A stretch of 64,000 bases of DNA from Laetmonice hystrix (lineage: Eukaryota), in assembly GCA_965235115.1 (NCBI GenBank), contig OZ249436.1, positions 16,308,001-16,372,000 on the forward strand, in the 5' to 3' direction. The position numbers and the translations under genes are program-made. Below are positions 22,216 to 55,253 of this stretch, piece by piece. How positions within the stretch are numbered: position 1 is the first letter of the stretch; the number at the start of each line of letters is the position of its first letter. The notes below the pieces were generated by a model that saw only the letters and a list, made by a program, of their open reading frames with translations, made no database searches and was not told the DNA's origin.

Positions 22216-23160
22216 AGGGGCCGCGCACGGCAATGATCTTAAAGAGGTTTAGGGTTAGAGTATGGTACAGGTGGGGGTTAGCGTGAAGTTATATATGAAG
22301 GTATACGGGGGATCGAAAGTCATTTCCCCTTCTATTAACTTTTAAAAAATACCTACTTTTCTTGACGTTTTATTATTATTTTCGTATTCTTAAGTTGTTA
22401 TGTGCATCCAAATTGCAATACAAGCAATAATCAATCGAGCATTACTCTTAGTGATTCTCATATATAGCAATTTGTCCGAATATGGTTTAAACATATTTTA
22501 GACTTTAAGAATTGGCTCCTTTTTTAAATGACAAGCGGGTCTTGGTGCTGATGCTCTCTTATTGTCTGAAATAAGGTGTGGATCATTAGATCCTGTCGGG
22601 GTTCTTCTTTTTCCTCCTCCTCCACTTCTGCTTCGCCTTCTTCATGTTTTTGTCAGTACGTGGTGCGAAAGGTTTGTTCATGCCACACAGGTAGGCCTAC
22701 AAGATATCCCCAAGTGAAATTTCTTGTTTGGATTTGGTTATACTAGAAAAGGTAGAGAAAGAAGATACCATACCCCCCCCCCCCCCCCCATATATATATA
22801 TATGTGCGACCTTTGCTCGCGTAAACACGAGGTTAGGGTTTGCTCTAACCCTATCATGCCCCTATCAAAATGTCCGACCTCGTAAACACGAGAACGTAAG
22901 ATGAATGTTTTACTGCATCGTTTTTCATTCTAGCTGGATAGCACAGTGTTGACCACCCGCCACACCTGGGAGTCTGCCATGGAGACCAGTTTCTGATTGC
23001 CGGCCAGGTAAGACATTGCTGCCTGCCTAGCTGCGTCATGTCTCACATAATGACGACAAGGAGGCAACAGCTGGGGACCCGGGAGAGCTACTCGTCGATA
23101 TCGATCTCTTTGTGATTCCTGTTTCTTCCGTGAATGACCACTCGCGTACATCTTAATATG

Positions 23161-23489: not shown

Positions 23490-26400
23490 ATGGAGGTCTC
23501 GACGGCCGAGTACACGGCCGGCCTGCTGGATCCCGAAACCACGGGCGGTGGTATGTTGAACGTGACGGACGGCAACATGACGGGCGGCGGTCTGCTGAAC
23601 ATGACGGGCGGCAACATGACGCTGGCCTCCGGCCCCACCATCATCAAGGTCAGGGGTGACATCAGCTGGGATGATGCCACCTGGATTCTCACAAGTGCCT
23701 TCATTATCTTTACCATGCAATCGGGTAAGAATTACTGTGGACCCTTCTAGTCTTTCCTTCCTGTCAGTCATAGTCCTCCACCCTTTCCTTCCTGTCATTC
23801 ATAGTCCACCATTTCCTTCCTGTCATTCATAGTCCTCCACCCTTTCCTTCCTGTCATTCATAGTCCTCCACCATTTCCTTCCTGTCATTCATAGTCCTCC
23901 ACCCTTTCCTTCCTGTCATTCATAGTCCTCCACCCTTTCCTTCCTGTCATTCATCGTCCTCCACCATTTTCTTCCTGTCATTCATAGTCCTCCACCCTTT
24001 CTTTCCTGTCATTCATAGTCCTCCACCCTTTCCTTCCTGTCATTCATAGTCCTCCACCATTTTCTTCCTGTCATTCATAGTCCTCCACCATTTCCTTCCT
24101 GTCATTCATAGTCATCCACCCTTTCATAAATATATTTGCTGAAATAGGTGCTTTCAAGAACAGAAATCCGGGAATAAAGCGCCGATTACAACAACATTGA
24201 GAAAAAAGAAAACCAGTGTTAGTTAAAATTCCCGTCCTCTTCCCAATCATTGCAAAAAAATATGATTCCAGCCAATAATATTAAGGAAGTAAGAATATGC
24301 CTATAGGTCTACACCATTAAATCGCAAAAGAAAGCATGAAATGCCTGGATCAACCTCGCCACTGCACGGCCCTGCACAACACAACCATTTTTAGTTTTTT
24401 CTTAAGCATTTTAAAAATCAATTTGATCTGACTTGAATTTGAATAGTATGAGAATGTTTTAACACCAGTAATATCACACTTTTTGTATGAATGGAAAGAG
24501 AACAGATTTATGTACCAAATAGACTTGCTTTATACCTCAATATGTTTGAGCGTCTTTTCTAATAAGCACTTTACTCGCAGAATCGTTGCTGGCTGCACGT
24601 TGCATGGTTTTGGAATGCAAGTCGAATAAAACTTGTGTGTGTCTGAGTCAGATACACTAGTGACCGGAAATACCTGTTCTTAGTTTCATTTGAAAGAGAA
24701 CAGAAATATCTAACTATCACTGGTTGTCGTTTTCCTCAATGTCAAATATTTGTGTTGTAATCAGCACTTTATTCTCTGTTTCCTTTTTTAAAACACTCCG
24801 TATATGTAAATGTCACCCATGTATTATACAAATAGACATGATGCTTTGGTCATTTTTAATCTTTTCAAATATATTTTCAAATTTATATTAAAGTGGCACC
24901 AAAGATTCCTCAAATACTTACCTTTGAACCCCAGGGACATGCATGTTAAAATTTCAGGTTCGAGCGATAAGCGAAAGTATTTTAAAAGTGAAGTTATATT
25001 AGGGGCCCTAGTTATCGTTCGACCCGTCTGCTATTTTCTCAAGCCAGCGCGGGTTGGGAACTATCGGTCTATAGAATTACATAGAGTATGGTAGCGAAAT
25101 TGGCGTGGAAGCCAACGGAGACATATTTTTCATTTCGCTTGTCACATATTTTCGCTTCTCGCTCGACCCTGAAATTTTATCATAGTGTCACTGCGGGTCA
25201 AAGGTAAGTATAGCTGAGGATTATTTAAAATGTAACTTTAAGGTAGAGGATATGATTACTTTTAATTTTATTTCTTCCTCTTGAACTTACTATCATATAA
25301 TAATACATCGGGAGAAGAAATTTCTATTGCGCTATGGTTCTGAAATCGTCGGGGCCTAATAAAACCTTAACGCTCTACCATTCAAACCAGCGGAAAGGTA
25401 CATTTGACTAGAGTTAGCCTACTCTAGAGGCTGGAAGTGTGCGTGTCAAATTTTAGTTAGGGTTTACGGGTGAGGGTTACATCTGGACCCCTGATCCTAA
25501 CTTTAAGCAAACATTTTCCAGGATTCGGCCTACTAGAGGCTGGAAGTGTAAGTGTGAAGAACGAAGTGAATATTATGGTGAAGAACGCAGTAGATGTGAT
25601 ATTCGGGGGGCTCACCTACTGGGCCTTTGGGTACGGACTCAGTTTTGGCGAAGGCCCCTTGGCCAATCCATTTTGCGGAGCGGGTTACTTCATGGTGGAC
25701 ACGGACGACCCGGACGAGATGGGAGTCGTTTACTCGACGTTTATCTTCCAACTATCTTTCGCCACGACGGCCACGACCATCGTGTCGGGAGCAATGGCCG
25801 AACGGACCAAACTGACGGCCTATATACTCTTCTCGTTGACCAATACCATTGTTTACGTGATCCCAGCACACTGGGTCTGGTCAAAGCTGGGCTTCCTGGC
25901 GCAGCTCGGTGTCATCGACATTGCCGGGTCGGGGGCCGTGCACCTTGTTGGGGGAGTGTCCGGCTTGGTGGCCACCATGATGCTGGGGTGCCGGGCAGGT
26001 CGCTATGATAAGGGCATCGACCCTCTTCCACCGGGCAACGCAACCAACGCCATCGTCGGCATGTTCATGCTATGGTAAGTGGACCTTCACTCCGTTTGTT
26101 GGTTAGCCGCGTTTTTGTTGCTTTATACATATATATTAGACGTATATTTCAAATAATAATTTGATTCCAGGTGGGGATGGCTAGGATTTAACTGTGGCAG
26201 CACATTTGGGATATCTGGCGGCAAGTGGAAACTAGCAGCTAAGTAATTGAGACTCATTTCATGACGTACGCGTGTGTCCCGTATTAAGACTGTCTGAGAA
26301 CCACCATTTCATGCCGTGCGTGTGTGTGTCCCGTATTAAGACTGTCTGAGAACCACCATTTCATGCCGCAAGTGGGTGTGTCTCGTATTATGACTGTGTC

Positions 26401-29400
26401 TGAGAACCACCATTTCATGCCGTAAGTGTGTGTGTCCCGTATTATGACTGTGTCTGAGAACCACCATTTCATGCCGTAAGTGTGCATGTGTGTCCCGTTT
26501 TAAGACTGTGTCTGATATCCACCATTTCATGCCGCAAGTGTGTGTGTCCCGTATTATGACTGTGTCTGAGAACCACCATTTCATGCCGTAAGTGTGTGTG
26601 TCCCGTATTATGACTGTGTCTGAGCACCATTTCATGCCGTAAGTGTGTGTTTCCCATATTATGACTGTGTCTGAGAACCACCATTTCATGCCGTAAGTGT
26701 GTGTGTCCCGTATTATGACTGTGTCTGAGAACCACCATTTCATGCCGTAAGTGTGTGTGTCCCGTATTATGACTGTGTCTGAGAACCACCATTTCATGCC
26801 GTAAGTGTGTGTGTCTCGTATTATGACTGTGTCTGAGAACCACCATTTCATGCCGTAAGTGTGTGTGTCCCGTATTATGACTGTGTCTGAGAACCACCAT
26901 TTCATGCCGTAAGTGTGTGTGTCCCGTATTATGACTGTGTCTGAGAACCACCATTTCATGCCGTGCGTGTGTGTGTCCCGTATTATGACTGTGTCTGAGA
27001 ACCACCATTTCATGCCGTAAGTGTGTGTGTCCCGTATTATGACTGTGTCTGAGAACCACCATTTCATGCCGTAAGTGTGCATGTGTGTCCCGTTTTAAGA
27101 CTGTGTCTGATATCCACCATTTCATGCCGCAAGTGTGTGTGTCCCGTATTATGACTGTGTCTGAGAACCACCATTTCATGCCGTAAGTGTGTGTGTCCCG
27201 TATTACGACTGTCTCAGAACCACCATTTCATACCGTAAGTGGGTGTTTCCCGTATTATGACTGTCTGAGAACCACCATTTCATGCCGTAAGTGTGCATGT
27301 GTGTCCCGTTTTAAGACTGTGTCTGATATCCACCATTTCATGCCGCAAGTGGGTGTGTCTCGTATTAAGATGTGTCTGAGAACCACCATTTCATGCCGTA
27401 AGTGTGTGTGTCCCGTATTAAGACTGTGTCTGAGAACCACCATTTCATGCCGTAAGTGTGTGTGTCTCGTATTATGACTGTGTCTGAGAACCACTATTTC
27501 ATGCCGTAAGTGTGTGTGTCCCGTATTAAGACTGTGTCTGAGAACCACCATTTCATGCCGTAAGTGTGTGTGTCCCGTATTAAGACTGTGTCTGAGAACC
27601 ACCATTTCATGCCGTAAGTGTGTGTGTCCCGTATTATGACTGTGTCTGAGAACCACCATTTCATGCCATAAGTGTGTGTTTCCCGTATTAAGACTGTGTC
27701 TGAAGACCACCATTTTATGCCGTAAGTGTGTGTGTCCCGTATTAAGACTGTGTCTGAGAACCACCATTTTATGCCGTATTTTAGGTCTGCCGTCACAACC
27801 ATCAACGCCTCTATGGGGGGAGGCGCGGTGGGTATTATCTACAGGTTAGTGAATAAGGGTCCTCACACTGCGGCTGCAGCCAGCTCTATCTAATTTATGT
27901 ATGTTATGACTAAATTCAGATTGAGGCCTGTATCAAGGAGTATTTGTTAAAAATGTCCTTATTGCACAGGTCTATGATTAACATTAATAAATGGCAGTGG
28001 TTCGCCCCTTCTTAATTTTTCATTTCCCCCCTTTACTTCCAGCTATATTTTCCGAAACCGGAAATACAACGTGACAGACCTGGTAAATTCTGTGCTGGGG
28101 GGACTGGTAGCAGTGACAGGTAGGTTTCAGTGATAAATCCACGTGTAGTCAGTATCCTTTGTGTACGCTTATCTCTTTGTCATGCGTGGCTATACCTCTA
28201 GGGCGTCACCTATATTTCTTATATTGCAGCATTTTGCTGACGAAATTCCAATAAAATCCGAGACTGATTTAATTAAATATATCATTTAGCGATTAAAGCT
28301 AAGTTATAATATATGTTGCCGGTTTGCAATAACTGCGGATAATAAATGTATTATGTCCTGCCGTATGCTATTAATAATTGTGCCCATGTAATGCCTGAGT
28401 GAGCTGCATGAATTGTGTACACGTGCGATTACTTGGTGTCATCGAGGTGATTATTGTAACGTGTGTTGATTACATGATGGTCAGTGGTGCCGCTAGGGTA
28501 TACATCGCTGGAAACCCCCCAGAAATTCGATCTAATTCCCCTGCCCCTCCCCATAATGTTCCGAAAGTTTCCCAAAATGTGTATGTTATTTATTCTCCAC
28601 ACCTGCCGACCCACCTGCCATCTTTTCTGACACTCGGGTGGTTAGGGTTAGGTTTAACCGTACTCACCACGATTCAGACAGGGTTGAGAAGTGGGGAAAG
28701 CAATTCGCGCCCACAACTGAGGAAAACTTCTTTAGTTGTCATGGACACCCTCTTTCAAGCTAGAGAGCCGATTGGGCAGGCTGCCACGAACTGATCTATA
28801 GCTACAGATCATGGTCACGTGCGCTATCTTCATATTGGTTACGTCACCGTGCCGCCATGTCTCGTAAAAGTAATGACGTCACCGTGTCATAATATATTGT
28901 CAAGGTGATAACGTGACCGTCATCAAACTAATGACGTCACCAGACCGCAATATCTCACAAAAGTGATTACGTCACTATGCTGCCAGACTGATTTAAAGAG
29001 TATTCACGAAGTCCTGGTCTCAGTAATACACAATTACTTTCCAGTTACTTTTAATTGTTAATTGCATTTTCACGTTTTTTAAATATAACCACATTTTAAC
29101 ACGGTTCTTTCACATGTTTGTCTCGTCCCGTTACGTCCAGTGACGTACAACCAAGCGTGACCACAACTCAACGCCCCCTGGCGCAATATGCAGAAGTGAA
29201 TACTCGACTACCTCGCCCCAGTAGCATGAGTATAACAGGAGTTCTTCTGTTCCCTTCAACTTTGTTTCTAACTCTGGAAGTTATTTCAGTAACCAGGGAG
29301 TGGCATATTCCTCCTTTTTGGTGTGGTTTCTTTTGTGATTTTTTTTTAAGTTTTGGATTTCTAATTTGTTGAAACTCTGCACGTTTACGGCATGTTCCCA

Positions 29401-32400
29401 CCCGTCTGAGTCGATGCTCGGTGCCGTTTGCCTGTGGTGTCCCGCCAGTTGCGGTGCCCGATCGCCCGCGCGTCCCATTCACTGACGGTGGTTCCTTGGT
29501 CCTTGTTTCGCCAGCCAGTTGTGCCCTGGTCAGGCCGTGGGAGGCGGTCGTTATCGGCATGGTGGGCGGCGTGGTCGTCGTCACCGGCATCCCAATGTTC
29601 GACAGGCTCAGGATTGACGACCCTGTGGGGGCACTGTCCGTTCACGGCCTTGTCGGCCTCTGGGTGAGTGTTTGCCGTTCCTGTCTCCAGCAAATCGTTT
29701 TCTGCTGTCTGTTTTGCCAGCCGGCTGCGCCCTGGTGAGGACCTGGGAGGCGGTGGTCATTGGTGTAGGAGGCGGCATTGTCTCCGTGCTCGCAGTCCCC
29801 CTTTTCGACAAGTTAAAGATCGACGATCCCGTGGGTGCACTGTCCGTTCATGGCGTCGCCGGTGTGTGGGTGAGTGCATGGACCATTGGCGCTTGGCCTC
29901 ACTATATCACATTTAAAACAGACACTATAACAGGAAACCTTTATTCACCTACAGTTCCTACGGCCTCATTGGTTCTCATTTTGAATTTGGGGACCAAAGC
30001 AAGTTTAGCACACATAGAAATAGGCCTACCATATGTCTTTATTCATTGCAGTTGGGACGGGTTATTACCAACATCTTTCGTTTAAGCCCCAGTTCCACCA
30101 AAGCCGATTGTACGACGTTCTATGCCGTTCTATCAAGATCTGAAATTTAGTTTAAGTCGTGAGGAATCGTTATGAAATCATGAAAACCCGAAGACCTAGC
30201 TACGAATCTATCATGTTCTATCCCGACATCGGCCCGACCTTCCCGACAGCGCAACGACTAAAGCAACGTTCACTGCCGACCTATGCAGATTGAGCTTCGA
30301 CCTATCAAGATCCAGGCCCGATGTATGGCGACCTATACCAAGATTGACAAACGATGTAGCAACGTTCTATGCCGTGCCCCAGCCGAGCTACGACCTGTCC
30401 CGATGACATCAGGTCTAGATCAGGGCTAAAGCCCCAGTCCCACCAAAGCCGAATTAGCTACGACGTGCTACGATCTGATAAATCGTGTAGAATCGGGAAA
30501 GGTCCTAACTCGGTCGTACAGTAGTCTTGATAGATCCTCATAGGTCGGGATAGGCCACGATTGCACCCCGACAATTTTAAACTGTTCAAAACAATCGGCA
30601 TTGGTCGGGAAAAAGCTCAAATCGGGGATATACCGTAGGTCAAACGTTGCTCAGTCGGGAATAGTCGTGGGACAATCGGGATAGTTCGTTGTTCAGTCCT
30701 GGTTGATCGTAGGACAACCGCCAGACATTTCCTAGATCTAGCCCTGACGTCATCGGGACAGGTCGTAGCTCGGCTGGGGCTCAGACGGCATAGAACGTTG
30801 CTACATCGTTGGTCAAACATCGGGTCGGGTTCTTGATAGGACGTAGCTCAATCTGCATAGGTCGGCAGAGAACGTTGCTAAGTTGTTTCTCGGTCGGGAA
30901 GGTCGGGGGGATGTCGAGATAGAACATGATAGCACGCAGCGTGATCGTTGAGAGATCTTTGGAAAACCGTTGCCCAGTCGCCGTTGAACGTGACAATTCG
31001 TAGCTAGGTCTTCGGGTTGTCATTATTTCATCACGATTCATTACGACTTAAAATAAATTTTAGATCTTGATAGAACGGCATGGAACGTAGTACAATCGGC
31101 TTTGGTGGGACTGGGGCTGCAATTGTCCTACGATAAACCAGGACTGAACAACGAACTATCCCGATTGTTCCGCGACTATATTCCCGACTGAGCAACGTTT
31201 GACCTACGATATAGCCCCGATCTGAGCTTTTTCCCGACCAATGCCGATTGTTTTGAACAGTTCAAAATTGTCGCGACCTATGAGGATCTATCAAGACTAC
31301 TCTACGACCGAGTTAGGACCTTTCCCGATTCTACACGATTTATCAGATCGTGACACGTCGTAGCTAATTCGGCTTTGGTGGGACTGGGGCTTTAATCTGA
31401 GCCTTACCCCAGAATCTATACGTAAAATGGCAAATATCTCAAGTGAGATTGTTTCTCCCACGGCCGAGCAAGCCGACAGATATGGCAGAACGGTCCGAAT
31501 CCGGTGTCCGGCGGTGTCTGGGCCTCACTGAGGGAGGGAAGGGTTAGGGTTAACACTGGAGGGAAAGGTTAGGCTTAACACCGGGGGAGGGTTAGGGTTA
31601 ACACTGGGGGAAAGGTTAGAGTTAACACTGGAGGAAAGGTTAGGGTTAACACAGGGGGGGTTAGGGTTAACACTGGAGGGAATGGTTAGAGTTAACACAG
31701 GGGGAGGGTTAGGGTTAACACTGGGGGAAAGGTTAGAGTTAAAACTGGAGTGAAGGGTTAGAGTTAACACTGGAGGGAAGGGTTAGGGTTAACACTGGAG
31801 GGAAGGGTTAGGGTTAACACCGGAGGGAAGGGTTAGGGTTAACACTGGAGGGAAGGGTTAGGGTTAACACCGGAGGGAAGGGTTAGGGTTAACACAGGGG
31901 GAAAGGTTAGAGTTAACACTGGAGGGAAAGGTTAGAGTTAACACCGGGAGGAAGGGTTAGGATTAAACCTGGAGGGAAGGGTTAGGGTTAACACTGGGGG
32001 GAAGGGTTAGGGTTAACACTGGAGGGAAGGGTTGGGGGTAACACAGGGGGAAGGGTTAGGGTTAACACTGGAGGGAAAGGTTAGGGTTAACACGGGGGGG
32101 GGAAGGTTGGAGTTAACACTGGAGGGAAGGGTGAGGGTTAAAGTATATATAACGGAAATAGAAGGCTTTGTGGCAACGGGGAAGCCTATATCATTTTATA
32201 AGACACCTCTCTGTGTGTTTTTTAAAATATTAACTTACCAGCGTTAACATTTATTGCCTACCGAACCCAGAAATTCCAGGCCGTTCTGCCAATAATCGCT
32301 CGTGACGTCACGAAAGGGACGGCCCACGGGGCGTCAAGGCCTAAGCCCTCGCCCCGATGAAAGCATCCTAGTTTGACAGTCGTGGTACCAAAAAAACCCG

Positions 32401-35400
32401 AAATGGTCAGTACGTGTGTCGTCCAGTTGTTTTAGTGCACCCGGGGATGTAATTTCTGTTCATCGTTGCCAAGTCGAGCTAATACTGGAGGGAAGGGTTA
32501 GAGTTAACACTGGAGGGAAGGGTTAGAGTTAACACTGGAGGGAAGGGTTAGAGTTAACACTGGAGGGAAGGGTTAGAGTTAACACTGGGAGAGAAAGGTT
32601 AAAGTTAACACTAGCAGGGGAGGGTTAGGGGTATTGTTGGGAGCGAAGTACCAATGTGTGAAGTATTTGACATAAGGGTTAATACTGGATGGAAGGGTTG
32701 GAGGTAACACTGGGGGAAGGGTTAGAGTTCACACTGGGAGGGAAGGCTTGGAGTTAACACTAGAGGGATAGGGTAAGGTTAATACTGGAGAGAAAATTAT
32801 GTTATTTCGTTCCCACGAAACGAAATGATTGTATTTCCTCGCAAGCGGGACGATCTACGCATGCACAGGTTCGAATCTTACCTCAAGCTTGACCTGCAAG
32901 CCTTTTCAATAAACACGTACCAGTTGCCTTTTCCAATGTGCTTTCTATAAAACAAACAGTCTAAATCACCATAACTTTCGAATGTCGAATGAGCTTTATA
33001 TTAGATACTGAAATTTTTCTCTGTTGTTAGGCCCGTAATACTGTAACCAGCAGCCTTCCATTCACTCCTATGTTAACTTAACTGGTTATTAACCAGCCTT
33101 TAGTGAGACGGGCCCCAGTACTTGAATATTATTAGTTACGTGGGTCTGCATACCTAAACTGGAGCATTATAAATTGTCCTAGCCCACAATTATAGGCCTA
33201 CAACCTCTTACGATACCGGTACTGGAAAATATTCTCCAACCACTATTGGCGGGAGATATTGAATGGTAAACCAGCCATCACACCTGCTTTTACAACCAGG
33301 TAAGAATAATACGCAGAATAACTAACCCTATAACCACCCACCTTTTATCACCTATAATTTATCTACTCGATATTTAATGATATAAACATCACTAGGACAA
33401 ACAAGGACACAATTACTAGTTTAGTCAAATTTTCCAAACTGACTGCCACGATACATGTCTCTCATTGTCTTAGGGGATGGCATGATTTGTGTGGACCATT
33501 TGTTGGCCCCCAGCCCGTTCTGGTCGACCAAACCCTCGATCTAGGTTGATCCGACCCTGGGCCAGGGCTGACCCAAACCCTCGGCCCGGGTTGCCTTTGC
33601 CCTCGGCCTTGGTTGGCCTGGCCCTCGGCCTGGATTGGCAGGTCCGCTCAACACTCGTCCTGGGTTGACCAGAGTACGGCTTGTATGCTTACCTACAGGG
33701 GATGCTGGCCGTGGGCCTGTTCGTGGAGACGGACCCCATCGAGGACCTGACAGCCGGACGGGCCGGGCTTTTCAAGGGGGGCGGCCCGTACCTGCTTGGC
33801 GTGCAAACCCTGGCCTGTGTTTGCATTGTGGTCTGGAGTGGAACAGTCACCTACATCCTCCTGGCGGTGAGTCACACTCGCGCTTTCGTCATGTGGATGG
33901 TCTTACCAAATCCTAGGAAAGGATACGTTCTAGTTATACTCTGGGAAAGGATCGGTTCTAGTCATGGACATACTCGGGGAAAGGATCGGTTCTCTGGTTC
34001 TACTCTGGGGAAAGCATAAGGATCGGTTCTAGTTATAGGCCTACTCGGGGAAAGAATCGGTTCTAGTTAGACTCCGGGGAAAGGATCGGTTATAGTTAGA
34101 GTCCTACTCAAGGAAAGAATCGGTTCTAGTTATACTCCGGGGAAAATATCGGTTCTAGTTATAGACCTACTCGGGGAAAGGATCGGTTCTAGTTAGACTC
34201 CGGGGAAAGGATCGGTTCTAGTTAGAGTCCTACTCAAGGAAAGGATCGGTTCTAGTTAGACTCCGGGGAAAGGATCGGTTCTAGTCATAAGGCTGGATTC
34301 CACCAAAAGTGTGTTTCGTGGGCCGATGCATCGGCCCGAAAAGACATCTGGCCGAACTTGGAGGCGATGTTTGTACACGATGTCGGACGTCGGTTCATCT
34401 GATGAATAAACAAAATTGCTCTTCCACCAAGCCATCGGATGGCGAATCTGATCATCGGTCCGATGACAAAATATTACTAGATCTACAGTATAGGCCTATT
34501 TGTATTCCCGCCGATTTAATAACCTCGCGGCTCATGTACATTAATAAGGGCGTTCAAGATGAAGTGGAGTGACATTCAACTTGTCACACTCGGGGTCACA
34601 GCAACTTTTCTACTAGAAGATATGTTCATCTGCAACGGTATCGAGAGACGCCATCAGTAGGCCTACTGGATGGCGCCTTACCTGCGTGACAGAACGGACC
34701 CAACACAACGTAACACAATGCCCAAATTGGAGAGACACATGATAAAGGTGAGCACATGTAGTCGATAATAGGTGGAAACTCAGTTTCTATACATCTGACT
34801 GTGACGATAGACTGGGCCTAAGGTAATTTTCACGAAAAGAATGCAGATTCACTGCCCCCGTTCGAGCCCTCCTAAAAGGCAGGCTTGGCCTAACAGGGCC
34901 AATTGGCACCGATTGGTGCGGGGGAGGGAGTAAGGTATTGGTGCAGGGGGGTTACAGGGGACGGATCCAAGTGTTAGTTAGGACCTAACAAAAACTAAAA
35001 AAAATCTTTAGCACCCAGGGGGGTTACAGACCCCCGGGCACGGCCCTGCCTAAGGTGTTTATCAGTAACAGATGGAGAGTTACAATGAATTGTAAACATT
35101 TTCTACAAATGTGATGAAACAAAATATTGGAAAACCTTGGGTAGCGATGGCTTATAGGGCAGGTGGGAGAGATGGTGTTAGTTTTGGAGACGAGGAAATG
35201 CATCATCCGGTATGGCTATAAATAGTTTATAAATGATTTTTTTTTTTTGGTGTTGTAATATTTATATTTCTACCTTACCTTAACACACAGAGTCAAAACG
35301 CTAAAGCTTTATTAAATTTCTTTTTGTTAAGACAGATAATAAAACATTTTAAATACCCGGTACTCTTTTCAGCTTGGCTGTGATTACGCATTTATGGCAA

Positions 35401-38400
35401 CCATGAGAATGTCGCCAGACGTCTATGCTGAAATAAAGAGACTTGTATATCCCCACATCTATAGACAAAATACGAACTAAAGAGAGTCTATAACGCCTAC
35501 GGAACGTCTTTCGCTCACCCTCAGATACCTAGCTCACGGTGAGTACAGGAAAATATTTCTATGGAGGATATAAAAGATAGCCACTAAAGCTCATGGGTCA
35601 TTCCATGGTAAATGTAGCCAATGTGTTATATGACGGCTGACATGGGGGATTGGAAGACGTGAAGGACGTAACATCTGACACTTCCAAAGGCGTGAAAGAA
35701 AAGATAAATCAAGTCTTGGCCTTTCCACAGCACACATAATAATTTGAGCAGTGATCTCACAAGACTGGACCTCACAAAAATACAAAACACCCTTTAAAAC
35801 AAAAGAAATTATTGATGACATAAAATGTGTGATAAAAAATAGACTTCATTATCTGATTATAGAACAAATACAAAGAAGATGTGTATGTGGCCAATTGCTT
35901 TCCTCCTCGAGAATATTCTGGAAAAATTGTTCAGAAAAATGTTAGCCCTCTTAAAATCCACCTGGAAGAGTGTGGAGTTCATCACTGATAATGATCATCA
36001 GCGTACAGCGTACACGCTACACTACACAGGCCCGTAGCCAGGGGGTGCGCAGGGTGCGTACGCACACCCCCCCCCCCCCAACAGCCCAAGCTCCCCCTAA
36101 CTTCAAAAGGTTGCAAGCACTCGCTGGAGTAGGCCTACCCTGCACCCCTCACCTGCCCAACAGTCCAAGATCTTCCTAACTTCAGTTATTTTGTGCTCCA
36201 AATTGCACCAGATATCACCAAAATACACCTTAAATTTCAAAATTTTCTGGGGGGCCATGACCCTGGATCCGCCTAACTATAGGCTTCGCGCTCTCAGCAC
36301 TAAAAGTTTGCAGACTTTGCACCTTTGGCCTGTGGGGCTTGTGTGCTTCGTGCCTATAGCTATGAGCCTGGGGGACTGTAGCGGTGGGGGGGGGGGAGTT
36401 GGGGGTGTCCCCTGCATTCCTGTTCCTAAATATTGACAGCCAAGGCCGTAGCTAGCGGAGGGGGGCAGTTCCTCCCTGTAACACCCCCCCATACCCACCA
36501 GAAAATTGTCATATTAGGTCTAATCTGACTGCAAACTGGCTGGGATCGTCGGTGGTATCATCAAAAGTGGCCCAGCAGGCTTTTCATTTCTATCAGAAAA
36601 GTGATTTCCAGATGCCGGGAAATAGCGGGTTTCTTTTGCCTTCCATATTAATTTTTTCCCCAAGGGAGGGCCCCCGGACCCCAAGCGGCAGGAACGGCTC
36701 ACTCTGTCGGCGCTTGCTGAATTTTACCTTATAGCTTTATCTCTGCAGCCCCCTTTCGCAAATGCCTGGATCAGCCCCCCTATCTTGTCCATTACATTTT
36801 TTTGGTATAGTATTTCCATGCAGGGAGGGATCCAGGTTGGCGCCAAATGGGGGGGGGGGGGGTTGTGAGTGCCAAGAAGGGGTATATGCTTGGTTTGAAC
36901 CTTTCAAGCAGAAAAAAAATTAGCCACTGGTTCTCATATAAATAAATGCACACGCCCCTGTTCATTTTAAAAAAGTGTTTTCAGCTATAGGACCTCGGCC
37001 TAACTAATATAACACCTTGCATTTCCGTCCCAGATGCCAGGGAAACGCCTATTTGGCACTTTAATTTTCAATTATTTTTTTACCCCTCTCCCCCACTCAA
37101 GGCTTCGCGTCTTCGGCGGGCCTTCCCCAAATTCCTGAATCCGCCCCTGAATGCCCTACTCAGAAAGTTCGAAGCTGGGTAGGTTATATGGATTATGAAC
37201 ATCTTGCTCCCTCCCTTTCTCATTGTTTTTGGCGACGTTGGTAAGCACTTTTACGGCCCAAATTAGGCTACCTAGACAACAGAACACCGATGGCAAAAAT
37301 ACCCCTTCTTCCCCATAATACGCACCCCCCCCCCCCCCCAAAAAAAAGAAATCCTGGCTACGGGCCTGCTACATAAGTAAAAATACAACACAGTGCAGGG
37401 AAAATAAAATATTCCTATTGAAAAAAAAAGATATAATGACAGGGGGATTGGATGTAACATGGACAGTGACACCATAGTGCCTTCAGTTCTTTGTTACGTC
37501 TAGAACCGTAGGTGAATTTAGCTGGTATTTTCCCAATGAAAAGGGCAATAGATTATTGCCAATGGGCAGGAGTATTAGGAGAAATTAGTAAGAACTCCCC
37601 TTTTCAAGAGAGAATGATATCTTATTTACAGCTGTCCAGCAAAATATTTCACAAGTATAGAGTCTGTCATTGACCAGAGCACTCAGTAGAGCATCTCGGT
37701 GTAGCAAATATCTCATGTCATAAATATATTTGAATTCCCCTATAAATTCTCCTATAAATATTCACAGTATGGATTGGACGTAACAGGTTATGGAAGTAAC
37801 AGAACTCTACACATCAGAAACTAATGCCTGAAGTCCTCTCTCATTTTCCTCATGTAGGAGCAACAGTCTGAGCATGTGTAGGCAAATTGTAGGTGTTCTG
37901 ATGTTTTAAAAAGTTTGTAAATCAATGTCTTTTATATGTTTTTACAGGCGACAGTGTTCATACCCTGCACCATGCATATCTCATAGGATATAGCACTGTT
38001 CTTCCTCTTGCCAGGGATACTTGCCGTGCGAGATTTCGTGTCCTAAAAGATGAGCATATGAAGGTAATTTTATAAAGTTTAATTTTATGGGTAAATTATT
38101 GAATTAAATTTCATTACGTCTTAGCTTGTTATTATGATAGTCGACTTTATATTTGTGATTATTTTGTATTAATTTGTGTATGTGCGTGCGTACATGAATC
38201 TATTTTATTTCTATCAGATACCAAGCACCAGAGTGGGAGGCAATAGCAAGAGGCTTCCAACGTCGATGGGACTTCCCCAATACACTAGGAGCTGTTGACG
38301 GAAAGCATATCAGGATCAGATGCCCAACAGGGTCAGGATCCGTATACTACAACTATATATAAGAATAACTATTCTCTAGTCCTGCTCGCTGCAGTCGACA

Positions 38401-41400
38401 GTGATTACCGCTTTGTATACGTCGACGTAGGGTCGGAAGGAAGAGCATCGGATTCAACCATATGGAAAGAAAGCGATTTCTATAAAGATATCTGTTCAGA
38501 AACAAACGTTTTGACCCCCCCCCCCCCGCCAAAGAAATTGCCAGGCTGCAAGGATCGTCTGCCATACTATTTCGTGGGAGACGATGCTTTTGCATTAGGG
38601 GAACACATGATGAAACATTTCCCTTCCAAGAGTCCGATGTACGCTGAACGGGTCTACAACAACCGGCTTACCAGAGCCAGACGCGTTGTTGAAAACTCGT
38701 TTGGCATGCTCGCCAACAGGCTTCGGATCTTACATCGGCAACAGGACATGGAACCAGAAGGTGTAAAAGTCACTGTAATGACCATGGCAGTCCTCCACAA
38801 CTTCTTAAGAAGTAAGTCCAAGTCAGACTACATGGCCAAGGGTCAGGTGGATTGGGAAGACCGTAACCATGATGTCCTTCTTGGTGAATGGAGGGCAACT
38901 GGGCAGTTGGACAGCTTGGGACACATGAAGGTGAGACACCCAAGTCATTACGTGAAAGAAGTCAGGAACAGCATCCGGCGGTGGTGTATAAGTAAAGATG
39001 GAAAGGTCCCTTGGCAGGATGAGCAAGTTCGCAAGATGAGGGAAGATGAAGAGGCTGCAGAAACCGAGTAAGGTGGAAAGGGATGCTTAAGGACAGGTCG
39101 TGACTAGGTCCTTCTTATTCATGTAGCTAGAGGATATTGATATAAATGTTCTAGTGATTAAAGAATGGGTCCAGGCAAGATTAAAGCTAAGTTTGATAGA
39201 TAAAACAAAGCAAGGGATATTTTGGGCCCTCAACCGTTGAACGAATATTTATAAGCAGCAGAATTGGTCCAAAAATTGTACTTAGAGAATGTATGCATTC
39301 CTATTGATATCTGCCCTAAACCTAGCCTAAATCTTGCCCGGACTCATCCTTCAATATTCTGAAGTTAACTAATGGTATATTAGATACAAGGGTTAGGATC
39401 TTGTAGTACTTAACAATAACTCTTCTACTTGAACTGTTATCTTTCATTCGTGAAAAATTGTAAAAATTTTATGCAAAGCGTTGATTATCTTTATGGTCAT
39501 TCAGTATCAAAGCATAAGGGTCAGAACAAGCCGAGTAATCGATGTGATTTTATTTATAAAATCATATTATATGAATAAAGATTACGGTTTCCTTTAAAAT
39601 AACAGTTGTATTTTCCTTAATAAAAACGTCTTCTAGTAACTTTTCTAAGGACACAATTGTCTAAGGATAGAAATACAACTACCATGTTTAGAACGTTTAA
39701 AATGTTTTAAACCTTATCCAACGTTTAACAATTGTAATACGCTTAATCTATCTGAAATGACATATTTTTCCTCTTAATCGCCATTAATGTCCAATAACTA
39801 AAGGTTTAAAAATATTTCCTTTTATCTGAATTACATCGATATTCATAGGTGTGTACACTCTCCTATCTGGGGGCTATAATGAACCTAAAATGTAAAAAAA
39901 AGCAACGAACTAACTCTTCACATGTCAGTTTGTGATATTTACCAGTATTACGCTGGAGTGCCCAGAGTACACATGAAAAACCTAAACCAACCTACAACCC
40001 AGAATAAAATCCACATTTTTGGATAATTTTTTTTCTGAACAAACCTATAATCTCTGTATGTATAAAATAAGACGATAATCTCCTGATTCTGCAGTGTAAT
40101 CAATATCCAGGCATCCCTACCTATTAATTTTAGCCATGGGAAGAGGAATTTGTATAAAGTTATGTTTTCTCAAAACTCTGAATATGTAATCTGAGCAGTA
40201 CGCACTGTAATATGCAGAATATACATATAAAATCTGTCTTGGATCAAATAGATAATGACCTAATTGTACAAAAATAAGTCTATTTTCATTCCTTTCCTTA
40301 GGAAAAATCCGTCCTTTAATGTTTCTTTTACAAAGGATATGTACATAAATTTGGCATCAATGCACAGTATGCATCAAGTTAAACTATACATGTATTGCCC
40401 CGAATGGCCTCAAAGGCCAACTGGGAAACGCGAAGCATAAATATGTCCTTATCATCCTGGCTCATACGTCCCATCTGACATGACAATGATTTAGCCCACA
40501 AGAGATCAGCTTTCTCTAGGCCCTCAATGATTTTCTCTGTTGGGTGGCGATTGGCTATTGCTGAAATCGACTCGGTGAGGGAGGTCTTTAGCTTGGTGCG
40601 GTCAGCTATGACTTCAGCGATAGCATTGCCAATAAATATGAAAAGGGAAATAATTAACAAATGGCATTCATAGATAAATTTTATGACTCTAAGGGTAACT
40701 CAGATGACAAAAATTATAAGATCAATGTAAAAAATGACCTAAAATGGGGAAAAATTGTAAATGTATGTGGGGGTGGGTGTATATGTGTATCCGTATAATC
40801 AGTATTATCGTGACTTGTATAGATCTACATAATATACATTACATCTAGCCCACTTGGGTTTTCATAAGTCACACTTATTTAAAAATAAGATAAAAGCGCT
40901 TGCAACATGATTTAACCAACTACAGAGATTATGTTTTTTTCGAAAATCTTTCCAACAAATCTACTTGTCTCCATAATTATATCCATCGACATAATTGAAA
41001 AAACACTGGTCATGGGTGTAATCCAGAATTTTCAGTTGGTGGGGGGGGGATCCAGGTCGAGGCCAATGGGTTGTGTTTGGGACACAAAAGGCTTGTCAAC
41101 CAGAACTGCCCCCCGTCATACAAAAGGGTTATCCCAATAATTACCCCCCCCCCCCAAAAAAAAAAGACTGCGATTTTTATGGATGACTCAGGGTTCTCAC
41201 TAGAAATTTTCGACAGCGTAGTGGTCAAACCAAGGGCAGAGGGTCACAGTAGAGGCAATGTCCCCACCCCGGCCCCCACCCCCAAACTATAGTAATTTAG
41301 GCTGACGGGACTTGCTGCGTCCAAGTCCCGGTCAGTGATGGCTGCAAGCCGGTCAGGTGGCTGGGCGGAATGTACAGTACAGCGGAAGATACAGTACCCG

Positions 41401-43839
41401 TTCACGTGACCCGGTCTGGACCCAACCTTGAATTCGGGGATGAATACAAACGCACCTCTCCCCCACCCAAATCTATCAGATCCTTTTCCCAATCGTCCAG
41501 TTTATTTGCCGCACCTCTAACAGTTCTACGTGGTGGTCGCGGGGGCGGTCCACTTTCTTGCCCTGCAGGGTCAGGGACATCACATTTGGGGTTTTCTTTG
41601 GTCTTCTTCGCTGGAGCCTTTCTTTTCTTTCCTGCCATCTTTGCGCTTTGTAGGCGTACGATCACATGACCACTGAGTCACGTGACGCGAACAGATTGAA
41701 CCTATCCAGCTAGCCATAGGCCCTATCCTCGATATCGCTGAATAATGACGCACGTCGCCCAACACAGCCTGGGCGTGGGAAGGCCATGAAAAGTGGTGTG
41801 TGTGTGTGTGCGATGTGGGGTGGGGGTGGGGCAAATCAGTCCATCACGCGAGTGCCGAAGGTGTGAAGTCTGGGAGTGCTCCCCCAGAAAACTGTGAAAT
41901 TTCGGGGGAGGGGGTTGGTTGGTGACATCTGGTGCTTTTTAGAACACAAAATAAGGTAGGCCTATAGGGGCCTAGGCCTAGATCTATAATTTTATCTTAA
42001 GACTGAACTCTTGTTTCAAAACTTCTGATTGGTCCTTCAAATGAAGTCCCCCCCCCCCCCAATATAATCTATAACCATAGGCCTACATTGCTTTGGTGGA
42101 ATGGGCAGAGAATGTATAGGCTAATAGAATACAAATGAATTCAGCAGAGCTTATGAATGCATGCTCTCCTTGATTGAGACAGATCTTAAGCCTCCCCCTC
42201 CTCCCTGCCCAAAATCAGGAATCTGAACCACAGTAAATGGGATGGGCTGGGGGGTCATTTGACTCGCAGGCTCTGCTAATTGAGTCGGCCGCAACCAATG
42301 GCGCATCCAGGATTTGAGGAAAGGGGGGCACCATTTGGTGAATAGAAATCTAATCAGTGGCCTATTATCAGGGGCCTATTTTCGGGAATGTCGAAGACAT
42401 AATCAAATTTCCACTATTTTTTAACCGGCCCCTGAAGTTGTTTTTTTTTTGGGGGGGGGGGGGGCATCCGCCTTTGATATCGACGGGTCTATATAAGGCC
42501 TATATTATGAGGCTACTATTCGTCCGGCCAGATGTCCGGTCAGATGATCCGACAATATTCAACTTTCTGAATATTGTCGGATGACGTCGATTCGACCTCT
42601 CTCGATGACCCGACGGGTCACCCGACGTCCGACAGAGCTGTTCCACCAGGCCAGATGTTATAGACGATGCCCCCCGATGCATTCAGGGCATGATTTCTCG
42701 GACCGATGCCGTCCGATGCGTCCGATTTCTTCTGGTGGAATTCCAGATTTTGCCCGATGACGTCGGTCAGACTTCTCTCGATGACCCGACAGGTGGCCCG
42801 ACGTCCGATGAAGGTGTTCCACCAGGCCAGATTTTGTAGCCGATGCGGCCCGATGCCACTCTGGGCATCGTTTTCTCGGCCAGATGCCATCCGATGCGTC
42901 CGATTTTCCCGGTGGAATTCCAGCTTTAGACCTACTCGGGGAAAGAATCGGTTCTAGTTATAGGCCTACTCAGGGAAAGGGTCGGTTCTAGTTATACTCC
43001 GGGGGAAAGATCGGTTCTAGTCATAGACCTACTCGGGGAAAGGATCGGTTGCAGTTATATTATTATATACGTTGCAAAGCGTTCTTGCCAGTTTACCATC
43101 TATCGATCTGTTTGTGGTAACTTACAGGTGATTCGCGCGACCATTGGTATTCGTATGTCGGAGTACGAAGAAATAATGGGTGCTGATTTCTGTGAGCACG
43201 ACATCGTCGACAGTTTGAGTATGGACATGTTGAGCAACAAGGACTCCAGGAGAAGCAGTACTCGGCGCAGGAGCAGCTTCGGCATCATTCGTAATGACGG
43301 AATTGATGGCGAGTCCCTGCGCCGGCGACTTAATCAAGTTACACAAAACGGCGTAAACAAAGAAACCTTGAGCGCCGAACGTGCTGCCGACACCAATTCC
43401 ATAGCACCAACACAGATCGTTGTTTCGACAATCAGCGACAGCAACACAAAGGATAACATATTCGGTAGGAAATGCACAGTGAAACAGAGAAATAATACAC
43501 TTAATAGCACTTTTAACTTTCCTGTCGTTCACTTTGAAAACTTTTTTGTTCATTATATTTTTTAAAGTGAACAAGACAAAATGGTCCAATACGCAATGTT
43601 CCGGTACATAGGCCTAGCACCTGTATCAAGTTCTTAATGGAATTTATCATGCTGCTTTGAAACCCTCACTAATAGATCTACTCATTTCCTCACTAATAGA
43701 TCTACTCATTTCTGATTCAGCTTTGAGAACGCGGCGTTTACAAGGCAAGCGAGGTGCCCTGGGCTTCCTGAGGAAGACGCGCGTTCGTGGCGCGTTCAGC
43801 CCGAAACGGAGCAGTAACCGGGACCGTCTGGACGCCTGA
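23490..43839 (+). CDS. amt: Ammonium transporter Amt-A (Amt/Mep/Rh family)
   Basis: Exons: 23490-23724, 25522-26074, 26171-26242, 27785-27844, 28043-28119, 29515-29663 OR 29721-29869, 33699-33866, 43128-43464, 43721-43839. The last exon is tentative; read-through of exon 8 stops at 43565. All introns are GT-AG and phase-consistent. Motifs: WDDATW...[93 protein letters not shown]. Confidence 0.93.
23751..24125. repeat. 31-bp minisatellite (~12 copies) at the start of Amt-A intron 1
   Basis: Unit TCCTTCCTGTCATTCATAGTCCTCCACCCTT. Confidence 0.95.
24892..25237. mobile_element. Old Kolobok-like MITE in Amt-A intron 1
   Basis: TTAA flanks on both sides. Inverted arms ATACTTACCTTTGA...AAAATTTCAGGTTCGAGCGATAAGCGAAA versus TTTCGCTTCTCGCTCGACCCTGAAATTTT...TCAAAGGTAAGTAT. 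Confidence 0.55.
26255..27778. repeat. 54-bp minisatellite (~28 copies) filling Amt-A intron 3
   Basis: Unit TTCATGCCGTAAGTGTGTGTGTCCCGTATTATGACTGTGTCTGAGAACCACCAT. Confidence 0.97.
29515..29663 (+). CDS. amt: Amt-A alternative exon 6a (149 nt)
   Basis: ccag|CCAGTTGT...CTCTGG|gtgagt, with a CTGAC branch-point-like motif at 29482-29486. Encodes [50 protein letters not shown]; phase 1 to phase 0. Confidence 0.88.
29721..29869 (+). CDS. amt: Amt-A alternative exon 6b (149 nt)
   Basis: ccag|CCGGCTGC...GTGTGG|gtgagt. Encodes [50 protein letters not shown]; same length and phases as 6a. Confidence 0.88.
30085..31392. mobile_element. Harbinger-type MITE with a second copy of the same family nested in inverted orientation (30429-~31118)
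   Basis: Four TIR copies AGCCCCAGT(T/C)CCACCAAAGCCGA at 30085, 30430, ~31118 (reverse complement) and 31392 (reverse complement). TA flanks at 30083 and 31393. 30085-30420 is the inverted complement of ~30740-31118, and 30430-30720 of ~31122-31392. Confidence 0.8.
31525..32790. repeat. ~28-30-bp minisatellite containing telomere-like GGGTTAGGGTTA (blocks 31525-32142 and 32480-32790)
   Basis: Unit ~ACACTGGAGGGAAGGGTTAGGGTTA. Confidence 0.9.
33905..34289. repeat. ~31-37-bp minisatellite, left half (resumes at 42927-43060 after the Harbinger insertion)
   Basis: Unit GGAAAGGATCGGTTCTAGTTATA(GGCCTA)CTCGG. Confidence 0.92.
34559..39071 (+). pseudogene. Harbinger (HARBI1-like, DDE_Tnp_4) transposase pseudogene, 4 exons
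   Basis: Exons 34559-34747, 35373-35538, 37948-38063, 38218-39071. Motifs MRMSPD..., ERLSLTLRYLAHGDS, WDFPNTLGAVDGKHI, VGDDAF, RARRVVENSFGMLANR. In-frame stops at 34658 (TAG) and 35478 (TAA); frameshifts near 38230 and 38355. Confidence 0.88.
40379..41638 (-). pseudogene. Putative Harbinger accessory DNA-binding gene remnant (MADF/Myb-like N-terminal start, BESS-like C-terminus)
   Basis: Convergent with the transposase inside the element. N-terminus MAGKKRKAPAKK (NLS-like) then LDDWEKDLIDL...LY, resembling a MADF start. C-terminal segment DLLWAKSLSCQMGRMSQDDKDIFMLRVSQLAFEA is BESS-like. The middle could not be reconstructed. Family assignment is by eye only. Confidence 0.5.
42927..43060. repeat. 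Right half of the same minisatellite
   Basis: Same unit, in register with the left half. Confidence 0.9.
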
Positions 43840-54800: not shown

Positions 54801-55253
54801 TACGCACTCAATCATGGATATAGTCAATGGACAACTCTGGAGCCATATTTGTCTATACGTCAATAAACGAAGTGCTGCCAGCATCTTGATGCAGATCTGG
54901 ATTGAGGTGACGTGTTCAAGCGTCCGTGCTGACCCCAGGCTCAGAACGTTTCCGTGTGTCCGTCACGTCATGTCGTGCCGCCAACCTGCACGTCACAGCA
55001 CAGCGTCTGCCTCATTGTGGCACGCGCTCCGGAATCGGACGGCACGTTAAACGTAAGCGGCTTGCCACCACAGGGCGATTGTAGGGCCAGAATGCCAGAT
55101 GCAGCTGGCCACCCTTCTGTAGGCATTCCGCTACTCATTCCGTCCACAACCATCGCCATACTCAAGTTGATTCCGTCTTCGACTACGCTTTTCTCCGACG
55201 AGAGTGAATCGGCCGCTTCGCCCGCGGATTCTTTTCGTATAAATACTACGGCC

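What the first reader, a model, noticed from the sequence alone, without database searches (positions are those of the whole stretch)
29515..29869. Tandem duplicated, apparently mutually exclusive pore exons in an ammonium transporter
Seen: Amt-A has two homologous exons of exactly 149 nt (6a 29515-29663, 6b 29721-29869). Each has a CAG acceptor and a GTGAGT donor, both run phase 1 to phase 0, and they are separated by only 57 nt. Either exon alone joins exon 5 to exon 7 in frame. Joining 6a to 6b, or retaining the 57-nt intron, reaches TGA at 29736, and skipping both shifts the frame. The peptides are 35/50 identical, with many synonymous differences and no indels or stops, as expected if both are under selection. 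Established: this segment (WEAVVIG...DDPVGxxxVHG) corresponds to the late transmembrane helices of AmtB and carries the second His of the twin-His pore motif. Very short spacer introns and NMD are known ways to enforce mutually exclusive splicing. Inference: one gene makes two channel isoforms that differ in helix-packing and near-pore residues (S/G, P/T, MV/VG, VTG/VLA, HGLVGL/HGVAGV), possibly differing in selectivity, gating or tissue use. I am not aware of this being described for Amt/Mep/Rh proteins, but I cannot search the literature.
Basis: partly seen in the sequence, partly recalled or inferred. Interest (0 to 1): 0.88.

Follow-up and report, generated by a model that had tools for sequence, protein, structure and literature searches.

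The report
Alternative pore-helix exons, ammonium transporter
An invertebrate ammonium-transporter gene carries two old, well-preserved tandem copies of one exon that cannot both be used in frame, so it most likely makes two versions of the channel core, though no RNA data were available to show this.

Summary
Exons 6a (29515-29663) and 6b (29721-29869) are both 149 nt, with CAG acceptors, GTGAGT donors, phase 1 to 0, and a 57-nt spacer. Either one alone joins exon 5 to exon 7 in frame. Both together, or the retained spacer, hit TGA at 29736; skipping both shifts the frame.

Both copies look selected. dN/dS is 0.19 with dS about 1.1. Each keeps 13 of 13 strongly conserved family columns, including the second twin-His histidine. 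Both match the same Pfam PF00909 positions.

A genomic reading frame from a related species (P0166) carries a 6a-type exon, a spacer of about 59 nt and a 6b-type exon, so the pair predates that species split. Read-derived contigs span both exons, so it is not an assembly artefact.

None of the other Amt genes in this genome has the pair, and none of 16 other animals' annotated isoform sets shows it.

No RNA run exists for this organism, so alternative use is inferred, not shown. Any functional difference between isoforms is untested, and the residues that differ lie only in variable columns.

Verdict: a probable mutually exclusive exon pair, a known mechanism in a family where my literature searches found no report.

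The parts
23490..23724 (+). Amt-A exon 1 (coding part from the first in-frame ATG; the true start was not verified)
   Evidence: tblastn to homologues at 23655-23726; frame and in-frame ATG positions; GTAAGA donor.
25522..26074 (+). Amt-A exon 2
   Evidence: PF00909 positions 17-200, E 3.6e-52; splice boundaries.
26171..26242 (+). Amt-A exon 3, preceded by a 96-nt intron
27785..27844 (+). Amt-A exon 4
28043..28119 (+). Amt-A exon 5 (ends in phase 1)
29482..29486 (+). CTGAC, candidate branch site for the 6a acceptor, 29 nt upstream of it
   Evidence: Motif scan. A consensus match only; the branch site was not mapped.
29515..29663 (+). Exon 6a, 149 nt, phase 1 to 0
29664..29720 (+). 57-nt spacer intron. 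It holds the 6a donor GTGAGT and the 6b pyrimidine tract and CAG. Adenines occur only at 29667, 29689, 29692-29694 and 29719.
29721..29869 (+). Exon 6b, 149 nt, phase 1 to 0
29736..29738 (+). TGA reached when 6a and 6b are joined or the spacer is retained
33699..33866 (+). Amt-A exon 7
43128..43565 (+). Amt-A exon 8, read to the first stop (later splicing in the tail is not excluded)
   Evidence: The CDS is 1752 nt = 583 aa with either exon 6.

Best explanation
Exons 6a and 6b are a tandem-duplicated, mutually exclusive exon pair of an Amt-type ammonium transporter gene. Each mRNA carries exactly one of them. This gives two 583-aa isoforms that differ at 15 of 50 residues in the segment equivalent to AmtB residues about 276-323. 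By recall, that segment is helix 9 and the start of helix 10, and it holds the second twin-His histidine.

Shown:
- the anatomy of the pair;
- the frame logic;
- purifying selection on the pair;
- conservation of both exon types in a related species.

Inferred:
- Exclusivity has two locks. First, the 6a donor and any branch point for 6b lie too close together, or in the wrong order, for the 57-nt spacer to be spliced out. Second, a transcript with both exons or neither is frameshifted, carries an early stop upstream of later junctions, and would be removed by nonsense-mediated decay.
- The isoforms tune helix packing around an unchanged pore rather than changing the pore-lining residues.
For: - Frames: 5-6a-7 and 5-6b-7 are open. 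Double inclusion or spacer retention stops at 29736. Double skipping shifts the frame.
- Selection between the copies: 42 of 147 nt differ, split 11/7/24 by codon position. Nei-Gojobori dN is 0.207, dS is 1.089, ratio 0.19, Fisher p 2e-5. A copy that had been neutral since a duplication this old would push the ratio towards 0.5 or more (inference).
- Family conservation: 115 of 120 animal homologues could be aligned without gaps. In these, 13 columns are at least 80% conserved, and 6a and 6b each keep 13 of 13. Mean identity to the homologues is 51.0% for 6a and 52.8% for 6b.
- Pfam: both match PF00909 positions 268-317, with 54.2 and 56.1 bits.
- Related species: P0166 is a 114-aa reading frame on a 110-kb unnamed ENA contig. 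Its residues 15-63 match 6a at 42/49. Twenty codons follow, starting with Val-Ser, as a GTGAGT donor would read. Residues 84-114 match the +1-shifted reading of 6b at 26/31, E 5e-17. By my own count from the translations, the same tail matches shifted 6a at only 11/31. This implies a spacer of about 59 nt.
- Back-inference of the relative's 6b: minimal-change reconstruction gives 7 nt changes in the first 93 nt. Four are synonymous and three are not in the true frame. The 6b-type residues are kept.
- Polymorphism: the one variant seen in the exons, 29797 C>T, is a synonymous Val codon change.
- Spacer: it has no YTNAY motif, and its internal adenines lie 26-31 nt from the donor. The nearest YTNAY motifs upstream of the 6b acceptor lie inside exon 6a.
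[quoted passage not shown] In C. elegans, 14 of 19 such clusters show NMD-dependent products (PMC4165533).
Against: - No transcript evidence of any kind. No RNA run is listed, and no protein from this species or a close relative that spans exons 5-6-7 turned up in three protein searches.
- The relative's 6b was read only through a shifted frame. Changes at true-frame second codon positions can therefore be hidden, and only its first 31 codons are seen.
- Only 1 of 132 fetched exon-6-like fragments shows a second copy.
- None of the other Amt genes of this genome has one within 1.5 kb.
- 0 of 16 other animals' isoform sets swap this exon. Conservation is therefore narrow.
- The smallest intron this organism can splice is unknown. 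In seven Amt genes I saw none shorter than 96 nt, but most boundaries were not refined.
- The branch point was not mapped.
Confidence: 0.72

Rival explanations
1. Only one of the two exons is used today. The other is a former alternative exon that has fallen silent recently and has not yet decayed.
For: No RNA evidence shows use of either exon. The pair is restricted to one gene and, as far as seen, one relative. 6b has two residues that are rare in the family, Gly16 at 0.01 and Thr7 at 0.05. 6a has Val46 at 0.02 and Thr23 at 0.04.
Against: Both copies keep intact acceptors, identical GTGAGT donors, the open frame and 13 of 13 conserved columns. dN/dS is 0.19 at dS about 1.1. Both exon types persist in the relative, and the changes there lean synonymous. 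The only exon polymorphism seen is synonymous.
Confidence: 0.14
2. One exon is the coding exon. The other acts mainly as a 'poison' exon: when it is included together with the first, the frame breaks and the mRNA is destroyed, which turns expression down.
For: Double inclusion gives an early TGA. Unproductive splicing coupled to decay is an established way of regulating genes (general knowledge).
Against: A poison exon needs no conserved reading frame, yet both copies are conserved as protein in the transporter's own frame. The 57-nt spacer, with its adenines 26-31 nt from the donor, makes 6a-to-6b splicing unlikely (criterion from PMC5740500).
Confidence: 0.05
3. The duplication is an assembly artefact or a collapsed or expanded haplotype.
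For: None found. The three runs come from one sample and may be the assembly's own source.
Against: Contigs built from reads of three runs (one sample, one study) run colinearly through 27900-30080, 29081-30080 and 28022-30080. They carry their own SNPs and indels and lack a 1310-nt repeat insertion present in the window. The two copies differ at 42 of 147 coding positions. An independent assembly of a related species has the same arrangement.
Confidence: 0.01

Closest known systems
Mutually exclusive exon pairs with an intervening intron too short to splice: C. elegans let-2 exons 9/10 (30 nt) and egl-15 exons 5B/5A (14 nt) (PMC4165533, passages read); mammalian alpha-tropomyosin exons 2/3 (recalled, not read)
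   Same: Two homologous tandem exons sit a few tens of bases apart. The upstream donor and the downstream branch site or acceptor cannot be used together, so one exon is chosen.
   Different: The spacer here is 57 nt, which is longer than the worm cases and close to the range some animals can splice, so steric exclusion is inferred, not shown. The exons are 3n+2 long, whereas all five worm short-intron clusters are 3n.
[quoted passage not shown]
   Same: 149-nt exons. Double inclusion or double skipping breaks the frame and gives an early stop.
   Different: NMD dependence was not tested here.
Prediction criteria for mutually exclusive exons of Pillmann et al. 2011 (WebScipio; PMC3228551, passages read)
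   Same: All three criteria are met: same length, same splice-site type and reading frame, and sequence homology without an in-frame stop.
   Different: Those authors note that such candidates still need transcript support. Here there is none.
Duplicated-exon alternative splicing of alternative oxidase in the oyster Crassostrea virginica (PMC5589949; title and start of abstract seen in the listing only)
   Same: A spiralian invertebrate uses a duplicated exon to make two forms of a membrane protein.
   Different: It is a different protein family. There, two mRNAs were found; here, none was available.
Other isoform variation in the Amt/Rh superfamily: alternative first exons of an Rh transporter (earlier scan note e1-7594734, unchecked); RefSeq-predicted insect Amt isoforms with a one-residue shift (sawflies) or an in-frame insertion just after the same His (Bacillus rossius, Osmia bicornis)
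   Same: One ammonium-transporter gene gives several predicted proteins. The insect variation falls at the end of the same segment.
   Different: None of these substitutes a homologous exon. They change the N-terminus or insert residues, and they are automated predictions.

Membership tests
Amt/Mep ammonium transporter family (Pfam PF00909) | Significant match to the family profile | tested here: met
   Exon 2: 177.9 bits. 6a: 54.2 bits. 6b: 56.1 bits. The cutoff is 23.2. Exon 7 scores 21.5 bits, just below the cutoff on its own. Homologues in the searches carry PF00909.
Amt/Mep ammonium transporter family (Pfam PF00909) | Second histidine of the twin-His pore pair present | tested here: met
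   His43 of both peptides aligns with a His in the three printed alignments to solved structures 6eu6, 5aex (Mep2) and 2b2f. That column is His in 115 of 115 aligned homologues. That this is the second twin-His residue is recalled.
Amt/Mep ammonium transporter family (Pfam PF00909) | First twin-His histidine present in the earlier part of the protein | tested here: met
   Exon 2 holds AGSGAVHLVGG, aligned to the same motif in the oyster homologue. Naming this His as the first of the pair is recalled.
Amt/Mep ammonium transporter family (Pfam PF00909) | Ammonium or methylammonium transport activity | not testable with these tools
   Needs expression in oocytes or mep-null yeast.
Mutually exclusive exon cluster derived from tandem exon duplication | Candidate exons of about the same length | tested here: met
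   149 nt and 149 nt.
Mutually exclusive exon cluster derived from tandem exon duplication | Same splice-site type and same reading-frame phase, with no in-frame stop | tested here: met
   Both have a CAG acceptor, a GTGAGT donor and phase 1 to 0, and both are open.
Mutually exclusive exon cluster derived from tandem exon duplication | Sequence homology between the exons | tested here: met
   34/49 aa identical; 74% nt identity over 167 nt.
Mutually exclusive exon cluster derived from tandem exon duplication | Splice-junction reads from each exon to the flanking exons that bridge the other exon (validation rule of PMC5740500) | not testable with these tools
   No RNA run is listed for this organism.
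Mutually exclusive exon cluster derived from tandem exon duplication | No exon-joining product, or joining causes a frame shift | tested here: met
   Joining 6a to 6b gives TGA at 29736. Whether joining occurs at all was not tested.
Steric-interference type of mutual exclusion | Donor-to-branch-point distance too short for spliceosome assembly (under 50 bp in the human survey) | tested here: inconclusive
   Any branch adenine inside the spacer is at most 31 nt from the donor, and there is no YTNAY motif in the spacer. The branch point is not mapped and this species' minimum intron size is unknown. The shortest other intron seen in seven Amt genes is 96 nt.

The most novel reading that the evidence does not exclude
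This would be the first case of mutually exclusive splicing inside the conducting core of an Amt/Mep/Rh transporter. In this reading, the pair has been kept since before a species split because the two helix 9-10 versions give channels with different properties. Examples would be a different transport rate or affinity, a different coupling of NH3 and H+ passage around the unchanged twin-His pair, or a different ability to join mixed trimers with the neighbouring Amt-B or the other paralogues. The exon choice would be tissue- or condition-specific.
Probability: 0.2. Interest if true: 0.7.

Novelty: new member of a known kind. Interest (0 to 1): 0.45.

Why it matters
Animals usually diversify ammonium transport by duplicating whole Amt and Rh genes. 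This genome itself has about seven Amt genes.

A conserved swap of just the helix 9-10 exon would be a natural, minimal pair of channel variants. They differ at 15 positions around an unchanged twin-His pore. That makes them a ready-made experiment on how the packing of these helices affects transport in a family whose mechanism is still debated.

It also matters for annotation. Gene predictors will report only one of the two exons, or a broken model.

Tried and rejected
- RNA evidence: no RNA holder is listed for an 8.6-kb stretch of the gene. The three holders are DNA-like runs of one sample.
- Transcript-derived proteins: exon 2 against longer proteins gave a best identity of about 74-75%. 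The exon-6 profile against longer and near-length proteins gave P0166 at 86% as the best hit, and nothing from this species.
- DNA of the relative: a metagenome scan with P0166 returned 80 loci, the best at 66%, and no close relative. The tool that would fetch the encoding contig is closed.
- Earlier scan notes: searches by sequence and by look-alike place found nothing.
- Same exon swap in other animals: I examined 16 same-species isoform sets (41 proteins) drawn from 20 clusters, and 0 show a substitution. Cluster members without a same-species partner were not compared. For the Drosophila cluster, only 15 of 31 members were listed.
- Second copy in paralogues: none within 1.5 kb of exon 6 in 9 other loci.
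- RNA structure: an inverted repeat (29695-29715 with 29915-29935, 10-bp perfect core) would loop out 6b, and it appears in the minimum-energy fold. The fold is no more stable than shuffles (z = +0.5; 141 of 200 shuffles fold as well). By my own estimate, a 10-bp match is about what chance gives in 2 kb. I rejected it as evidence.
- Literature: five searches found no paper on mutually exclusive or duplicated exons in an ammonium transporter. A sixth only collected the MXE survey papers.
  - The words ammonium/Amt/Rh are absent from the main texts of four MXE surveys.
  - They are also absent from the 10 supplementary files of the human survey that are held as text.
  - The Drosophila paper's held supplements are only 3,086 characters, so its gene lists were effectively not seen.
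  - One look-up failed on a too-short term and was not repeated.

Full report
**What is there**

On the + strand, 29515-29663 (6a) and 29721-29869 (6b) are two 149-nt homologous segments. Each is preceded by a pyrimidine-rich tract ending GCCAG and followed by GTGAGT, and 57 nt separate them. Read from their third base, they give two 49-residue peptides without stops or gaps, 34 of 49 identical. An independent repeat search returns the same unit: 167 nt, 74% identity, spacing 206.

Each peptide on its own matches positions 268-317 of the 399-position Pfam profile PF00909, with 54.2 bits for 6a and 56.1 bits for 6b against a cutoff of 23.2. Each aligns to solved Amt and Mep2 structures, at about residues 276-323 of the E. 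coli AmtB chains. Its histidine falls on a histidine in the three printed alignments. By recall, that histidine is the second of the twin-His pair.

**The gene**

tblastn with animal homologues, followed by reading of the splice sites, gives these exons:

| Exon | Coordinates |
|---|---|
| 1 | 23490-23724 |
| 2 | 25522-26074 |
| 3 | 26171-26242 |
| 4 | 27785-27844 |
| 5 | 28043-28119 |
| 6a / 6b | 29515-29663 / 29721-29869 |
| 7 | 33699-33866 |
| 8 | 43128-43565 |

The CDS is 1752 nt (583 aa) with either exon 6.

The best homologues are 70-75% identical over exon 2. They come from molluscs, annelids, nemerteans and brachiopods, so the animal is a spiralian-like invertebrate without a close relative among named proteins. 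A second Amt gene (Amt-B) starts at about 55194 and runs off the window. It has a single exon-6 equivalent.

**Frame logic**

- 5-6a-7 and 5-6b-7 stay open.
- 6a+6b, or retention of the spacer, stops at TGA 29736-29738.
- Skipping both shifts the frame and stops in exon 8.

Both exons start in phase 1 and end in phase 0, so they cannot be chained.

**Not an artefact**

Contigs built from the reads of three runs (one sample, one study, possibly the assembly's source) run straight through both exons: 27900-30080, 29081-30080 and 28022-30080. They carry their own SNPs and indels, and they lack a 1310-nt high-copy insertion at 30081-31390. The only difference inside the exons is 29797 C>T, a synonymous change in Val25 of 6b.

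**Both copies are under selection**

- 42 of 147 in-frame bases differ, split 11, 7 and 24 by codon position.
- Nei-Gojobori dN is 0.207, dS is 1.089 and the ratio is 0.19. The excess of synonymous change has Fisher p 2e-5.
- With dS this high the duplication is old and has not been recently homogenised. A copy that had drifted freely for that time would have raised the ratio far above 0.19 and would probably carry a stop or an indel (inference).
- 115 of 120 homologues could be aligned without gaps. In these, 13 columns are at least 80% conserved, and each exon keeps all 13. All 15 differences lie in variable columns.
- Mean identity to the homologues is 51.0% for 6a and 52.8% for 6b. Of the 115, 30 are closer to 6a, 65 closer to 6b and 20 are tied.

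**Conserved in a relative**

The top hit of a profile search with both peptides is P0166, a 114-residue reading frame on an unnamed 110-kb ENA contig (743 hits among 1325 candidates, best 120 listed).

- Residues 15-63 are a 6a-type exon, 42 of 49 identical.
- Twenty codons follow. They begin Val-Ser, as a GTGAGT donor would read.
- Residues 84-114 match the window's 6b read one base out of frame, 26 of 31, E 5e-17. By my own count from the translations, they match shifted 6a at only 11 of 31.

So that species has a 6a-type exon, a spacer of about 59 nt and a 6b-type exon. The frame offset differs from the window because the spacer length differs by 2.

I also picked, for each shifted codon, the codon nearest the window's. 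This gives 7 base changes in the first 93 nt of 6b. Four are synonymous and three are not in the true frame, and the residues that mark 6b against 6a are kept. There are two caveats. Changes at true-frame second positions can hide in the shifted reading, and only 31 codons are visible.

Among the 132 fragments and proteins fetched, P0166 is the only one with such a second copy.

**How wide is it?**

The genome (627 Mb) has about seven Amt genes plus three distant ones. Every other exon-6 copy has its own exon 2 nearby, so these are separate genes. None has a second copy within 1.5 kb.

6a and 6b are closer to each other (69-71%) than to any paralogue (60% or less), so the exon duplication followed the gene duplications.

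I compared 16 same-species isoform sets (41 proteins) from 20 protein clusters of other animals. None swaps this exon.

- Three sawfly sets differ by one residue after the His.
- Bacillus rossius and Osmia bicornis have an in-frame insertion there.
- Lineus isoforms differ in the first exon.

**How exclusivity probably works (inferred)**

The spacer has adenines only at 29667, 29689, 29692-29694 and 29719, and it has no YTNAY motif. The nearest such motifs upstream of the 6b acceptor lie inside exon 6a, at 29641 and 29614. Whichever is used, the 6b branch point is at most 31 nt downstream of the 6a donor, or it lies upstream of that donor. The 6a donor therefore cannot be paired with the 6b acceptor.

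The human survey uses under 50 bp as its steric criterion (PMC5740500). In C. elegans, introns under 40 nt between such exons are never removed (PMC4165533).

The frame shift gives a second lock through nonsense-mediated decay, as shown for 14 of 19 comparable worm clusters.

In seven Amt genes of this genome I saw no other intron shorter than 96 nt, but most boundaries were not refined and the sample is small.

**What differs between the isoforms**

The differences are Ser/Gly at position 1, Pro/Thr at 7, Met-Val/Val-Gly at 15-16, Val/Ile at 19, Val/Ser at 21, Thr-Gly-Ile/Leu-Ala-Val at 23-25, Met/Leu at 27, Arg/Lys at 30 and 32, Leu-Val/Val-Ala at 45-46, and Leu/Val at 48. The DDPVGALSVHG core is identical in the two. 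6b has the smaller side chains at several helix positions.

The likeliest effect is a change in helix packing around an unchanged pore. A change in trimer contacts is also possible; that helix 9 takes part in those contacts is recalled and was not tested.

**What could not be done**

No RNA run is listed. No transcript-derived protein of this species was found. The relative's DNA could not be fetched.

**Known or new**

Five searches found no paper on mutually exclusive or duplicated exons in an ammonium transporter. A sixth search only gathered the MXE survey papers used below.

Four surveys of such exons do not mention the family in their main text. The 10 supplementary files of the human survey that are held as text do not either. 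The Drosophila survey's gene lists were not available to me.

The pair meets all three published prediction criteria: length, splice site and frame, and homology (PMC3228551).

**Verdict**

This is a sound observation and a probable mutually exclusive exon pair, with confidence about 0.7. It is a new member of a well-known kind, in a family where my searches found no report. It awaits a simple RT-PCR.

Noticed in passing
window 55194-64000 (continues beyond the window; L101): A second Amt gene (Amt-B) lies in tandem on the same strand, with exons at about 55194-55385, 60616-61176, 61597-61668, 63117-63227 and 63664-63855. It has one exon-6 equivalent that runs on into the exon-7 region without the intron found in Amt-A.
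   Followed up: partly
window 30081-31390: A 1310-nt stretch in the intron after 6b is skipped by one contig in each of the three runs, and it has a word depth about a thousand times that of its flanks. It looks like a high-copy repeat insertion that is polymorphic or haplotype-specific.
   Followed up: no
window 29695-29715 and 29915-29935: An inverted repeat (21 nt, 76% complementary, 10-bp perfect core) pairs the 6b pyrimidine tract with a site 46 nt past the 6b donor, which would loop out 6b. It is in the minimum-energy fold, but the fold is no better than shuffles, and conservation could not be checked.
   Followed up: partly
window 38289-39068 (+): A 260-aa open frame in Amt-A intron 7 matches the DDE_Tnp_4 transposase domain (PF13359, E 1.9e-20). 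It is probably a Harbinger/PIF-type transposon.
   Followed up: no
window 57900-59600: Open frames recur every 46 nt on both strands, and GC skew is -0.555 in 58001-60000. This suggests a tandem repeat array with a 46-nt period, lying between Amt-B exon 1 and exon 2.
   Followed up: no
window 15539-16906, 21298-22286 and 26336-27845: In these stretches two or three reading frames stay open for 200-450 codons at once, with only weak sub-threshold Pfam hits. They are probably low-complexity or tandem-repeat DNA rather than genes.
   Followed up: no
window 23553-23640 (Amt-A exon 1): The predicted extracellular N-terminus holds four closely spaced N-x-T sequons (NVT, then NMT three times) in a short repeated Gly-rich motif.
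   Followed up: no
P0070/P0302, P0298/P0299, P0300/P0301 (sawflies); P0081/P0336 (Bacillus rossius); P0104/P0341 (Osmia bicornis): RefSeq-predicted insect Amt isoforms vary right after the second twin-His histidine. The sawflies have a one-residue shift. The stick insect and the bee have in-frame insertions of 28 and 24 residues, which look like retained introns.
   Followed up: partly
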